The position numbers and the translations under genes are program-made. Shown here piece after piece: positions 14,800 to 15,609 of a stretch of DNA of 24,000 bases. Below the pieces are notes generated by a model, which searched no databases, was not told the DNA's origin, and was given only the letters and a program-made list of their open reading frames with translations. The DNA is from Methanimicrococcus blatticola (GTDB taxonomy: Archaea > Halobacteriota > Methanosarcinia > Methanosarcinales > Methanosarcinaceae), in NCBI RefSeq assembly GCF_004363215.1, contig NZ_SNYS01000009.1:70047-94046 (forward strand), written 5' to 3'. The first letter of the stretch is position 1; each line of letters opens with the position of its first letter.

Positions 14800-15609
14800 T
14801 TAATAAATTCTTTTTTTATTTTCAATTTGTATTCTGCCGCTCTCTATTGTGTATTTTAAAATATTCCCGCCGGCATTGCCGGTTTTGTATTTGTAAATTA
14901 ATATTTTGCGTTCAAATTTGCCGCCGTTTTCTTTGATCTGAAATTCCATTCGCGAATCCGCGAAATAATTCAATCGCTCTTCAATTTGTTTTGAAAGGAT
15001 GTCTGTGTGAAGACATCCGATGACAATCTATTGATCATTAATGCCGTTTTTTATTTCTTTTACAAAAGAAAAAATGCGGTATTCTTCCTCTTCATCATTT
15101 TCATATCGGGCAGAATCTTCATCATTTCTATCTTGGGCAGAGTTTTCGTTTTGTTTTTCATTTTTCTCTTCTTTTTGTTTTTCATTTTTCTTTTCAGTTT
15201 GTTTTTCATTTTGAAACAATTCGCTGAGAGTGTCAATGAAAATTATCATTTTCAATGACTTCTCTGCGACAGCTTCCTGATTGTTTTGGTTTTCAGTTTG
15301 GTTTATTTTTGTTGTTTTTTTGGTTTGCATCGTTTTATTTTCGAAAGTCCGGCTGCACATTTCTTTCCAACAATGCCTGTTTTCAGGCGTTATTTTCAAA
15401 AACATGCAGCCGGTTTTTTCAATATTTTCTTTATCGGCAGTCCTCCCATTCGATTTTTCAATCTCTGCCGAAAAAGCGGCAATTCCTTCATCATCATTTC
15501 CGGACAATAAAAGAAACGATCCGTTTCCGATCTTATTTCCCGTCAAACGATCAATTTCCGGAACACCTGTTGTGAAATTCGAAGCCATTGTTCTTTCACA
15601 AACATACAA
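14800..15609 (-). CDS. RecA/KaiC-superfamily-like protein with a degenerate P-loop, interrupted by an in-frame TAG (15030-15028); candidate recoded gene or recent pseudogene
   Basis: The track ORF 15028-15609 ends at TAG. The same frame is open for 75 further codons to TAA at 14802-14800, verified codon by codon. The N-terminal part has GVPEIDRLTGNKIGNGSFLLLSG and a Walker-B-like MIIFIDTLSEL. The C-terminal part (IVIGCLH...ERKILIYKYKTGNAGGNILKYTIESGRIQI) completes the fold. The likely start is the ATG at 15588 (MASNFTT), given a TATA-like box at about 15619-15626. Confidence 0.55.
14997..15018 (-). promoter_or_regulatory. Perfect 7-bp stem / 8-nt loop RNA hairpin beginning 9 nt 3' of the in-frame UAG
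   Basis: The mRNA reads UAG-AUUGUCAUC-GGAUGUC-UUCACACA-GACAUCC-UUUC. No oligo-U tract follows, so it does not look like a terminator. Confidence 0.5.

What the first reader, a model, noticed from the sequence alone, without database searches (positions are those of the whole stretch)
14800..15609. In-frame UAG inside a RecA/KaiC-fold gene of a methanogen: candidate pyrrolysine/readthrough site, or a very recent pseudogene
The track ORF (15609->15028, 193 aa) stops at TAG (15030-15028). Re-translating the same frame codon by codon, it stays open for 75 more codons to TAA (14802-14800). The reading is ...KNGINDQ-[UAG]-IVIGCLHTDILSKQIEERLNYFADSRMEFQIKENGGKFERKILIYKYKTGNAGGNILKYTIESGRIQIENKKRIY*.

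The pre-UAG part opens like a KaiC/RadA-type RecA fold (GVPEIDRLTGNKIGNGSFLLLSG, then Walker-B-like MIIFIDTLSEL). The post-UAG part supplies what that fold normally ends with:
- a hydrophobic strand, IVIGCLH;
- RKILIYKYKTG, resembling the R-x-L-x-I-x-K-x-R-G strand;
- YTIESGRIQI, resembling F-x-I-x-x-x-G-I-x-V.

So the UAG sits inside the domain, and the 269-codon total is a normal single-domain size. The host is a methanogen (marker domain 9 is in the next gene), a group that contains the known UAG=Pyl decoders. None of the 14 other complete CDSs here ends in TAG (8 TAA, 6 TGA), but this is a small sample and only weak support.
Basis: partly seen in the sequence, partly recalled or inferred. 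Interest (0 to 1): 0.8.

Follow-up and report, generated by a model that had tools for sequence, protein, structure and literature searches.

The report
Conserved in-frame UAG (pyrrolysine) codon
A gut methanogen's small KaiC-like gene carries a stop codon (UAG) in its middle that six related lineages keep and evidently translate through, most likely as the 22nd amino acid pyrrolysine; this is a clean new example of a phenomenon already described for this genus.

Summary
**Observation.** It is correct. On the minus strand an ORF ends at TAG (15030-15028), and the same frame stays open for 75 more codons to TAA (14802-14800).

**Not an error or a pseudogene.**
- Two independent assemblies carry the identical gene.
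- Five other Methanimicrococcus lineages have TAG at exactly the homologous codon.
- Each of them has an indel-free 75-codon tail under purifying selection (dN/dS 0.08-0.32).

**Sense-codon relatives.** Other relatives have TAT, TAC, CAG or TCC at this site. It is a variable loop position just before a conserved beta-strand.

**The protein.**
- It has a single-domain KaiC/RecA fold.
- The post-TAG part supplies the last strands of that fold.
- The Walker A motif is degenerate (invariant GNDDEG), so it is probably not an ATPase.

**TAG usage.** TAG ends no well-supported gene in about 255 kb of related sequence.

**Literature.** The genus is already reported to make pyrrolysine and to have many internal-TAG genes.

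**Best reading.** UAG is decoded as pyrrolysine at a tolerant site that arose by neutral Tyr(TAY)-to-TAG change.

**Limits.**
- I could not check for pyl genes in this genome.
- I could not show selection on the TAG codon itself.

**Verdict.** This is a new member of a known kind, of moderate interest.

The parts
14800..15588 (-). Full read-through coding sequence: 186 codons, then UAG, then 75 codons, then TAA. It encodes a 262-residue single-domain KaiC/RecA-fold protein. An alternative mechanical start is TTG at 15609.
   Evidence: Searches give the sequence and translation. Searches show full-length orthologues of 225-267 aa that align end to end. Searches give the AlphaFold model (pLDDT 75, pTM 0.74) and Foldseek matches to KaiC, FlaH, SSO2452 and PH0284.
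15028..15030 (-). In-frame TAG (codon 187), inferred to be decoded as pyrrolysine.
   Evidence: It is identical in two assemblies. TAG is at the homologous codon in L001, L002/L008, L003, L004 and L017. Sense-codon relatives have TAT, TAC, CAG or TCC. In the model it lies in the loop between helix 157-182 and strand 189-194.
15031..15588 (-). Pre-UAG segment (186 codons). It holds the N-terminal half of the fold and a variable linker.
   Evidence: dN/dS over the first 75 codons is 0.15-0.55.
14803..15027 (-). Post-UAG segment (75 codons: IVIGCLH...IENKKRIY). It supplies the last beta-strands of the KaiC fold. The TAA stop is at 14800-14802.
   Evidence: All six TAG-bearing lineages have 75 codons with no indel, and dN/dS is 0.08-0.32. 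In orthologues P0001 and P0002 this segment is the part that hits Pfam PF06745 KaiC above threshold. The model places strands at 189-194, 212-221, 224-234, 242-249 and 252-255.
15484..15501 (-). Degenerate Walker A position. GNDDEG (residues 30-35) replaces GxxGxGK[T/S].
   Evidence: G30, N31, D32 and G35 are invariant, and D33 and E34 are nearly invariant, in 20 family members. The profile-to-PDB alignment places GNDdeGm opposite GEPGTGKT of SSO2452, PDB 2w0m.
15217..15249 (-). Walker-B-like hydrophobic strand followed by an acidic residue (MIIFIDTLSEL, residues 114-124).
   Evidence: The model has a strand at 114-118. The family consensus is IESLSELF with a nearly invariant acidic residue.
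15082..15210 (-). Lineage-specific K/N/E/Q-rich low-complexity insert, made by in-frame tandem repeats of 24 and 27 nt.
   Evidence: Tandem Repeats Finder reports repeats at 15089-15213. The insert is absent or shorter in orthologues. The model has lowered confidence there (pLDDT about 61-69, against 86-93 in the structured flanks).
14970..15020 (-). Candidate 12-bp hairpin starting 7 nt after the UAG. It is not established as a recoding signal.
   Evidence: RNAalifold predicts it. It keeps 10-12 of 12 pairs in TAG-bearers against 8-10 of 12 in sense-codon relatives. There is no covariation, and the folding z-scores are inconsistent, from -3.1 to +1.3.
11817..14753 (-). Downstream co-directional genes, a likely operon. 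They are the Dus-like/methanogenesis-marker-9 gene (13590-14753), a CitG-like gene (12530-13546) and DUF447 (11817-12494).
   Evidence: Pfam and NCBIfam hits. The same gene order is found in all orthologous loci.
15687..16094 (+). Divergently transcribed hisI (PRA-CH). It is the conserved upstream neighbour.
   Evidence: One search gives the Pfam hit. Searches show the synteny.

Best explanation
**What it is.** The gene is one intact coding sequence. Its codon 187 is a UAG that the ribosome translates, most probably with pyrrolysyl-tRNA(CUA). The product is a 262-residue KaiC/RecA-fold protein.

**How the UAG got there.**
- The UAG occupies a variable loop position immediately before the conserved strand IVIGCLH.
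- Close relatives have Tyr, Gln, His or Ser there.
- Their codons are mostly a single nucleotide change from TAG (TAT, TAC, CAG); TCC is one step from TAC.
- The likeliest history is a neutral Tyr (TAY) to TAG change in a genus where TAG has essentially been abandoned as a terminator.
- That change then passed through speciation to at least five species-level lineages. In a sixth lineage it was either gained independently or retained from an older ancestor.

**Expected side product.** Some termination at the UAG is expected by analogy with Methanosarcina acetivorans. It would give a 186-residue fragment lacking five strands of the fold's sheet, which is probably non-functional.

**Shown here.**
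- The TAG is real.
- Its position is conserved.
- The downstream segment is under purifying selection.
- The fold is KaiC-like.
- TAG is not used as a terminator in the sampled sequence.

**Inferred, not shown.**
- The inserted residue is pyrrolysine.
- The change arose neutrally.
For: **The TAG is real.** It is identical in assemblies GCA_020011555.1 and GCA_020685265.1.

**Its position is conserved.**
- TAG is at the same alignment column in L001, L002/L008, L003, L004 and L017, the last being Ca. M. odontotermitis.
- The codons just upstream vary freely (CAA, CAG, TCT, CGG, CGA).

**The downstream segment is translated.**
- It is 75 codons with no indel and no stop in all six lineages.
- dN/dS is 0.08-0.32 at dS 0.4-1.8.
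- The first 26 codons after the TAG are also constrained (0.08-0.57).
- Four of the six lineages have no in-frame ATG, GTG or TTG before codon 19-22.

**The gene is a single unit.**
- Full-length orthologues read through with TAT, TAC, CAG or TCC.
- The post-TAG part matches the end of Pfam KaiC in orthologues.
- It forms five beta-strands of the modelled fold.

**TAG is not used as a stop.**
- It ends 0 of 93 other ORFs in the TAG-bearing genomes.
- It ends 0 of 125 ORFs of 150 aa or more in the sense-codon genomes.
- The only four TAG-ended ORFs are 91-100 aa long and have no Pfam hit.

**The genus makes pyrrolysine.**
- Host assignment to Methanimicrococcus.
- All isolates grow on methylamines plus H2, and pylBCDS is present in almost all genomes: PMC11362671.
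- The genus is listed among those with numerous internal-TAG genes: bioRxiv 10.1101/2024.09.30.615893.
Against: - **The pyl genes of this genome were not examined.** The window holds no pylT, and my attempts to reach the genome's PylS failed.
- **There is no peptide evidence.**
- **Retention of the TAG codon is not statistically distinguishable from neutrality.** The tree length at four-fold sites is 0.72-1.02 substitutions per site. That gives P of about 0.07-0.38 for no change under neutrality (with the formula corrected by hand).
- **TAG is rare in every frame in these genomes.** It makes up 4.6-5.8% of off-frame stops. The absence of TAG terminators is therefore only moderately significant (P about 0.01 for 0 of 93).
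- **Two lineages could in principle re-initiate.** They have a canonical start codon right after the TAG: L002 has ATG at +1, and L004 has TTG at +2.
Confidence: 0.85

Rival explanations
1. Split gene. UAG terminates translation, and the C-terminal 75 residues are made as a second polypeptide by re-initiation just after the stop. The two pieces then assemble into one fold.
For: L002 has TAG-ATG with a GGGAG-like stretch about 10 nt upstream, and gene callers did call a 75-aa ORF there. L004 has TTG at +2.
Against: The window, L001, L003 and L017 have ATT or ATA after the TAG. Their first canonical in-frame start is at codon 19-22, yet the intervening IVIGCLH... codons are under purifying selection. 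All sense-codon orthologues are single chains.
Confidence: 0.05
2. Read-through without pyrrolysine. The UAG is leaky and is decoded by a near-cognate tRNA (Gln, Tyr, Lys or Trp) in a genome that lacks or has lost the pyl genes.
For: The pyl genes were not verified in this genome. PMC11362671 says 'almost all', not all, genomes of the clade carry the pathway.
Against: A functional gene that depends on inefficient near-cognate read-through is unlikely to persist in six lineages. The near absence of TAG terminators is the signature of a cognate UAG decoder. The genus is methylamine-utilising.
Confidence: 0.05
3. Recent pseudogene or sequencing/assembly error.
For: Standard gene callers truncate the gene. 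The calls are 193, 176, 169, 155 and 163 aa products, or 123 and 49 aa in the two assemblies.
Against: The sequence is identical in two assemblies. The same TAG is found in five other lineages whose neighbouring proteins are only 61-90% identical. There are no secondary lesions, and dN/dS downstream is well below 1.
Confidence: 0.01
4. Regulatory UAG. The codon is kept because it makes the yield of full-length protein depend on the charged tRNA-Pyl level. That level rises on methylamines in M. acetivorans, so the protein, and perhaps the downstream cofactor-biosynthesis operon, would be coupled to methylamine growth.
For: UAG gives both long and short products of RdmS in M. acetivorans, and the pyl genes are induced at least four-fold on trimethylamine (PMC12626013). 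TAG is invariant in six lineages while the flanking codons vary. A hairpin 7 nt downstream is slightly better kept in TAG-bearers.
Against: Retention of the TAG is compatible with neutrality. Sister lineages replaced it with, or never left, ordinary Tyr, Gln or Ser codons. The hairpin shows no covariation and has inconsistent stability.
Confidence: 0.08

Closest known systems
Internal-TAG ('Category 1') genes of Pyl-decoding archaea, as defined by Kivenson et al. (bioRxiv 10.1101/2024.09.30.615893)
   Same: [quoted passage not shown] The extension is longer than 15 aa. The genus is explicitly listed as having many such genes. TAG is essentially unused as a stop.
   Different: That paper says nearly all non-methyltransferase Pyl sites are singletons within one genome or genus. 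This site is shared by six diverged lineages, and it is either retained across several speciations or gained twice. I could not check whether this gene is already in their tables, because no supplement is held.
Pyrrolysine in tRNA-His guanylyltransferase (Thg1) of Methanosarcina acetivorans. This is the 'neutral appearance' case cited; the details are from my own knowledge.
   Same: It is a Pyl codon in a protein unrelated to methylamine metabolism. The site is an ordinary residue in orthologues, and the codon probably arose by drift.
   Different: In Thg1 incorporation was shown experimentally, and the site is confined to one species. Here there is multi-lineage conservation but no experiment.
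RdmS sensor kinase of M. acetivorans (PMC12626013)
   Same: It has an internal UAG in a regulatory-type protein. The UAG is expected to give both a read-through form and a truncated form.
   Different: The protein family is different. For RdmS the dual products were shown by western blot, whereas here they are only inferred.
Methylamine methyltransferases MtmB, MtbB and MttB
   Same: They carry an in-frame UAG decoded as Pyl in the same organisms.
   Different: In those enzymes Pyl is catalytic and universally conserved. Here the position is variable (Y/Q/H/S/R/C) and sits in a loop. No PYLIS-like element is supported.
Single-domain archaeal KaiC/RecA-superfamily proteins: ArlH/FlaH (PDB 4yds, 4wia), SSO2452 (2w0m), PH0284 (2dr3); Pfam PF06745
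   Same: The fold matches (Foldseek E 1e-9 to 1e-7). The N-terminal G-x-P-E-x-D motif matches. The C-terminal motifs ER-x-L-x-I-x-K-Y-K-G and Y-x-I-x-x-G-x-I-x-I-E match.
   Different: The Walker A lysine and threonine are replaced by an invariant acidic GNDDEG loop. The NCBIfam ArlH score is 39 against a cut-off of 215. The family is tiny and confined to the Methanimicrococcus/Methanolapillus gut clade, with 22 clusters at E <= 1e-10 among 1.84 billion representatives. It also carries a long variable insert.

Membership tests
Pyl-decoded internal-UAG gene (Category 1 sensu Kivenson et al.) | The sequences on both sides of the TAG are homologous (>30% identity) to one known protein, and read-through adds more than 15 residues. 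| tested here: met
   Full-length orthologues from M. stummii, M. hacksteinii and others cover 100% of the read-through product at 50-56% identity. The extension is 75 aa.
Pyl-decoded internal-UAG gene (Category 1 sensu Kivenson et al.) | The genome encodes tRNA-Pyl (pylT), PylS and PylBCD. | not testable with these tools
   None of these is in the window. The routes to this genome's PylS failed. There is genus-level support only: PMC11362671 and bioRxiv 10.1101/2024.09.30.615893.
Pyl-decoded internal-UAG gene (Category 1 sensu Kivenson et al.) | TAG is rare or absent as a genuine terminator. | tested here: met
   TAG ends 0 of 93 other ORFs in TAG-bearing genomes and 0 of 125 ORFs of 150 aa or more in sense-codon relatives. 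Four short TAG-ended ORFs have no Pfam hit. One caveat is that TAG is rare in all frames.
Pyl-decoded internal-UAG gene (Category 1 sensu Kivenson et al.) | The downstream segment is translated, shown by purifying selection with no secondary lesions. | tested here: met
   dN/dS is 0.08-0.32, with no indel or stop in six lineages.
Pyl-decoded internal-UAG gene (Category 1 sensu Kivenson et al.) | A pyrrolysine residue is detected in the protein. | not testable with these tools
   This needs mass spectrometry.
Catalytic-Pyl proteins (MtmB/MtbB/MttB type) | The UAG position is conserved across the whole family, and a PYLIS-like structure lies downstream. | tested here: not met
   Relatives have TAT, TAC, CAG, TCC, CGG, CGA, TCT or TGC at the site. 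The predicted hairpin lacks covariation and consistent stability.
KaiC/RecA-superfamily single-domain proteins (Pfam PF06745) | The RecA-like alpha/beta fold of KaiC, FlaH and SSO2452. | tested here: met
   The AlphaFold model has pLDDT 75 and pTM 0.74. Foldseek against PDB matches KaiC, FlaH, SSO2452 and PH0284 at E 9e-10 to 1e-7.
KaiC/RecA-superfamily single-domain proteins (Pfam PF06745) | A Pfam score above the gathering threshold. | tested here: inconclusive
   The window protein has no PF06745 hit at E <= 0.01. Orthologues P0001 and P0002 pass (28.5 and 31.8 bits against 26.6), but only over the C-terminal 55 residues. P0025 falls just below, at 25.1 bits.
KaiC/RecA-superfamily single-domain proteins (Pfam PF06745) | A Walker A P-loop, GxxxxGK[T/S]. 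| tested here: not met
   An invariant GNDDEG is aligned to GEPGTGKT of PDB 2w0m.
ArlH/FlaH archaellum protein | A score above the cut-off of the NCBIfam equivalog NF052589, plus an archaellum context. | tested here: not met
   The score is 39.3 bits against a cut-off of 215. The neighbours are marker-9, CitG-like, DUF447 and hisI genes, not arl genes. The genus is described as non-motile (PMC11362671).
Pseudogene | Relaxed constraint and accumulated lesions downstream of the stop, with the lesion private to one genome. | tested here: not met

The most novel reading that the evidence does not exclude
The UAG is maintained by selection as a pyrrolysine-dependent expression switch. Full-length KaiC-like pseudo-ATPase, which sits at the head of an operon of marker-9, CitG-like and DUF447 genes, would be made only when charged tRNA-Pyl is abundant, that is, during growth on methylamines. 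The codon's presence in two separated branches of the genus would then reflect repeated selection rather than drift.
Probability: 0.08. Interest if true: 0.7.

Novelty: new member of a known kind. Interest (0 to 1): 0.4.

Why it matters
**Annotation.**
- Standard annotation splits or truncates this gene in every TAG-bearing genome.
- The calls are 193, 176, 169, 155 and 163 aa fragments, plus orphan 49-75 aa ORFs.
- The case is therefore a concrete correction: these genomes need TAG-aware gene calling.

**Biology.**
- Few non-methyltransferase UAG positions are shared by several species. This one gives a natural series of Pyl, Tyr, Gln, His and Ser variants at one site.
- That series can be used to test whether such Pyl residues are neutral passengers.
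- The gene would also work as a natural reporter of UAG read-through efficiency in gut methanogens.

**What it does not change.** It does not alter the current picture of pyrrolysine decoding.

Tried and rejected
**1. Finding the pyl genes of the window's own genome (failed).**
- Cluster look-ups gave no organism names.
- One candidate, P0108, belongs to a different assembly, GCA_016841625.1.
It did not return the window's own genome.

**2. Supplements and accession searches (nothing usable).**
- The Table A3 sheet for Ca. M. odontotermitis in PMC11362671 is truncated in the stored copy.
- The Kivenson preprint has no held supplement.
- The assembly accessions appear in no paper.

**3. A PYLIS-like element (not supported).** A 12-bp hairpin is predicted 7 nt after the UAG. 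It has no covariation, is only marginally better kept in TAG-bearers, and its z-scores are inconsistent.

**4. Selection on the TAG codon itself (not demonstrable).**
- With four-fold-site tree lengths of 0.72-1.02, P is about 0.07-0.38.
- The probabilities printed in that call used a wrong exponent. I recomputed them as exp(-3T x fraction).

**5. More TAG-bearing orthologues in JGI metagenomes (none found).** The pattern scan gave one unrelated hit.

**6. Other internal-TAG genes in about 255 kb of related loci (none convincing).** The other candidates are antisense or off-frame junk.

**7.

Full report
**Observation**

- On the minus strand the frame reads ...KNGINDQ, then TAG (15030-15028), then IVIGCLHTD...IENKKRIY, then TAA (14802-14800).
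- The mechanical ORF begins at TTG 15609. All orthologues begin at the M of MASNFTTG, so I take ATG 15588 as the start.
- The read-through product is then 262 residues.
- An open extension of 75 or more codons after a stop is not rare by itself. It occurs in 22 of 245 ORFs in related loci. The case therefore rests on homology and conservation.

**Host and context**

- The window carries the split archaeal RNA polymerase genes (3973-11649).
- It also carries a Dus-like gene with the methanogenesis marker 9 domain, a CitG-like gene, DUF447 and hisI.
- Homologues of the gene come only from Methanimicrococcus and Methanolapillus, which are gut Methanosarcinales.
- The window is 100% identical to a contig of GCA_020011555.1 and 99.99% identical to a contig of GCA_020685265.1. 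Both carry the gene with its TAG. This excludes an assembly error.

**The TAG is conserved**

- Four database proteins that looked truncated (P0004, P0005, P0009, P0029) all ended at the same alignment position.
- Their contigs (L001-L004) each show TAG at that codon, followed by an open 75-codon frame ending ...IENKKRIY.
- A sixth case is Ca. M. odontotermitis, whose gene is broken across two contigs (L014 and L017). It has TAG at L017 147-149.
- Across the six lineages the TAG is invariant, while the codon before it is CAA, CAG, TCT, CGG or CGA.
- Sense-codon relatives have other codons at this position:

| Relative | Codon |
|---|---|
| M. stummii | TAT |
| OttesenSCG-928-J09 | TAC |
| M. 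hongohii | CAG |
| Ast373_bin29 | CAG |
| M. hacksteinii | TCC |
| More distant relatives | CGG, CGA, TCT, TGC |

**The downstream part is translated**

- Pairwise Nei-Gojobori analysis of the 75 post-TAG codons gives dN/dS of 0.08-0.32 at dS 0.4-1.8. There are no indels or extra stops.
- The first 26 codons after the TAG are also constrained (0.08-0.57).
- Four of the six lineages have no in-frame ATG, GTG or TTG before codon 19-22. Only L002 (ATG at +1) and L004 (TTG at +2) could re-initiate conventionally.
- This refutes a pseudogene. It makes a split gene unlikely as the general explanation.

**What the protein is**

- An AlphaFold model built on 20 family members has pLDDT 75 and pTM 0.74. 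Residue 187 lies in the loop between helix 157-182 and strand 189-194.
- Foldseek against the PDB returns KaiC, FlaH/ArlH, SSO2452 and PH0284 at E 9e-10 to 1e-7.
- A family profile finds SSO2452 by sequence at E 5e-4. It aligns the invariant GNDDEG with the P-loop GEPGTGKT. The Walker A lysine and threonine are therefore missing, and the protein is probably not an ATPase.
- In orthologues the only stretch that passes Pfam's KaiC threshold is the C-terminal, post-TAG segment.
- The protein is not ArlH: it scores 39 bits against a cut-off of 215.
- The family is tiny, with 22 clusters at E <= 1e-10 among 1.84 billion representatives.
- Its remote relatives are ordinary PF06745 proteins, and several of them also have degenerate P-loops.

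**TAG usage**

- Among 247 long ORFs in about 255 kb from 16 loci, 152 end in TAA, 89 in TGA and 6 in TAG.
- Two of the six TAG cases are this gene. The other four are 91-100 aa ORFs in sense-codon genomes, have no Pfam hit, and have a backup stop 0-22 codons later.
- In the TAG-bearing genomes no other ORF ends in TAG (0 of 93).
- Among ORFs of 150 aa or more in the sense-codon genomes the count is 0 of 125 (P = 6e-4 against the off-frame TAG rate).
- TAG is rare in every frame in these genomes (4.6-5.8% of off-frame stops). I therefore treat this as supportive, not decisive.
- No other convincing internal-TAG gene lies in these loci.

**History of the codon**

- A tree of four concatenated neighbouring proteins (1,057 columns) groups the window, L001, L003, L008 and L017 at 70% bootstrap.
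- The M. stummii, Ast373 and M. hongohii clade (TAT, CAG, CAG) is their sister at 88%.
- M. hacksteinii (TCC) and J09 (TAC) branch next. L004 (TAG) branches below them, at 58%. The single-gene tree agrees.
- Two histories fit. TAG may be old and have been replaced at least three times, or it may have arisen twice from TAY.
- The observed codons are mostly one step from TAG, or one step from each other.
- With four-fold-site tree lengths of 0.72-1.02, the chance of an unconstrained TAG surviving unchanged is about 0.07-0.38 (recomputed). I therefore cannot claim selection on the codon.

**A recoding signal?** A 12-bp hairpin is predicted 7 nt after the UAG. It shows no covariation and has inconsistent stability. 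Known Pyl decoding does not require such an element (PMC12626013).

**Comparison with the literature**

- Kivenson et al. list Methanimicrococcus among eight genera with numerous internal-TAG genes. They infer that TAG is read as Pyl genome-wide in a subset of such archaea.
- They note that non-methyltransferase Pyl sites are nearly all confined to one genome or genus and may be neutral.
- Protasov et al. report growth on methylamines for all isolates of the clade and pyl genes in almost all genomes.
- Shalvarjian et al. show that UAG gives both long and short products of RdmS in M. acetivorans.
- This gene fits that framework. Its only unusual aspect is that several species share the site.

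**Limits**

- I could not inspect the pyl genes of this genome.
- Nothing here identifies the inserted residue chemically.

**Verdict**

- The read-through/pyrrolysine reading is supported, with confidence about 0.85.
- The pseudogene reading is refuted.
- This is a new member of a known kind, and its interest is moderate.

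Noticed in passing
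window 21793-22302: There is a 243-bp tandem repeat of 2.1 copies at 98% identity inside a large ORF that runs off the window end. The product is over 1,100 aa in the assemblies and has a weak Flg_new hit. The other assembly of this organism (L005, GCA_020685265.1) is 243 bp shorter here, so repeat copy number differs between the two assemblies.
   Followed up: partly
window 15082-15213 (inside the gene): In-frame tandem repeats of 24 nt (2.8 copies) and 27 nt (2 copies) create a K/N/E/Q-rich insert of about 43 residues. The insert is specific to this lineage, and orthologues differ widely in length in this linker.
   Followed up: partly
window 15484-15501, and family alignment A1: The whole protein family has an invariant acidic loop, GNDDEG, where KaiC-type proteins have the Walker A P-loop. 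Remote relatives (P0180, P0181, P0183) also lack the lysine/threonine pair. This suggests a wider group of KaiC-fold pseudo-ATPases next to the marker-9 gene.
   Followed up: partly
window 16145-20291: Three consecutive ORFs (259, 499 and 491 aa) have no Pfam or NCBIfam match. In related genomes the region beyond hisI instead holds a 700-aa PIN/KH/T2SSE-type ATPase gene and other genes, so this is a variable region.
   Followed up: no
window 3973-12494, compared with L001, L002 and L004: In the window the marker-9/CitG/DUF447 operon abuts the RNA polymerase gene cluster. In the other TAG-bearing relatives DUF447 is followed by HAD hydrolase, metallo-beta-lactamase and flavodoxin-like genes. 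This points to a rearrangement in the window's lineage.
   Followed up: no
window 10-120 and 310-452: There are short tandem repeats near the window start: a 12/24-nt unit, and a 23-nt unit of 6.2 copies at 90% identity (TAAGACAAAGATAAAACAAAAAA). They lie downstream of the 3' end of the minus-strand glutamate-synthase-like gene.
   Followed up: no
L011 14424-14711, L018 2359-2661 and 9477-9776, L019 6623-6898: These are the only TAG-terminated ORFs of 90 aa or more in the sense-codon relatives. They are short (91-100 aa), have no Pfam hit, and are followed by a second stop 0-22 codons later. They are either spurious ORFs or genes with short Pyl-extended tails.
   Followed up: partly
L020 (GCA_016841625.1, JAENYU010000003.1): An unrelated Methanosarcinaceae-type locus was fetched by accident. 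It has an unusually long PylS (536 aa) followed by pylB, pylC and pylD.
   Followed up: no
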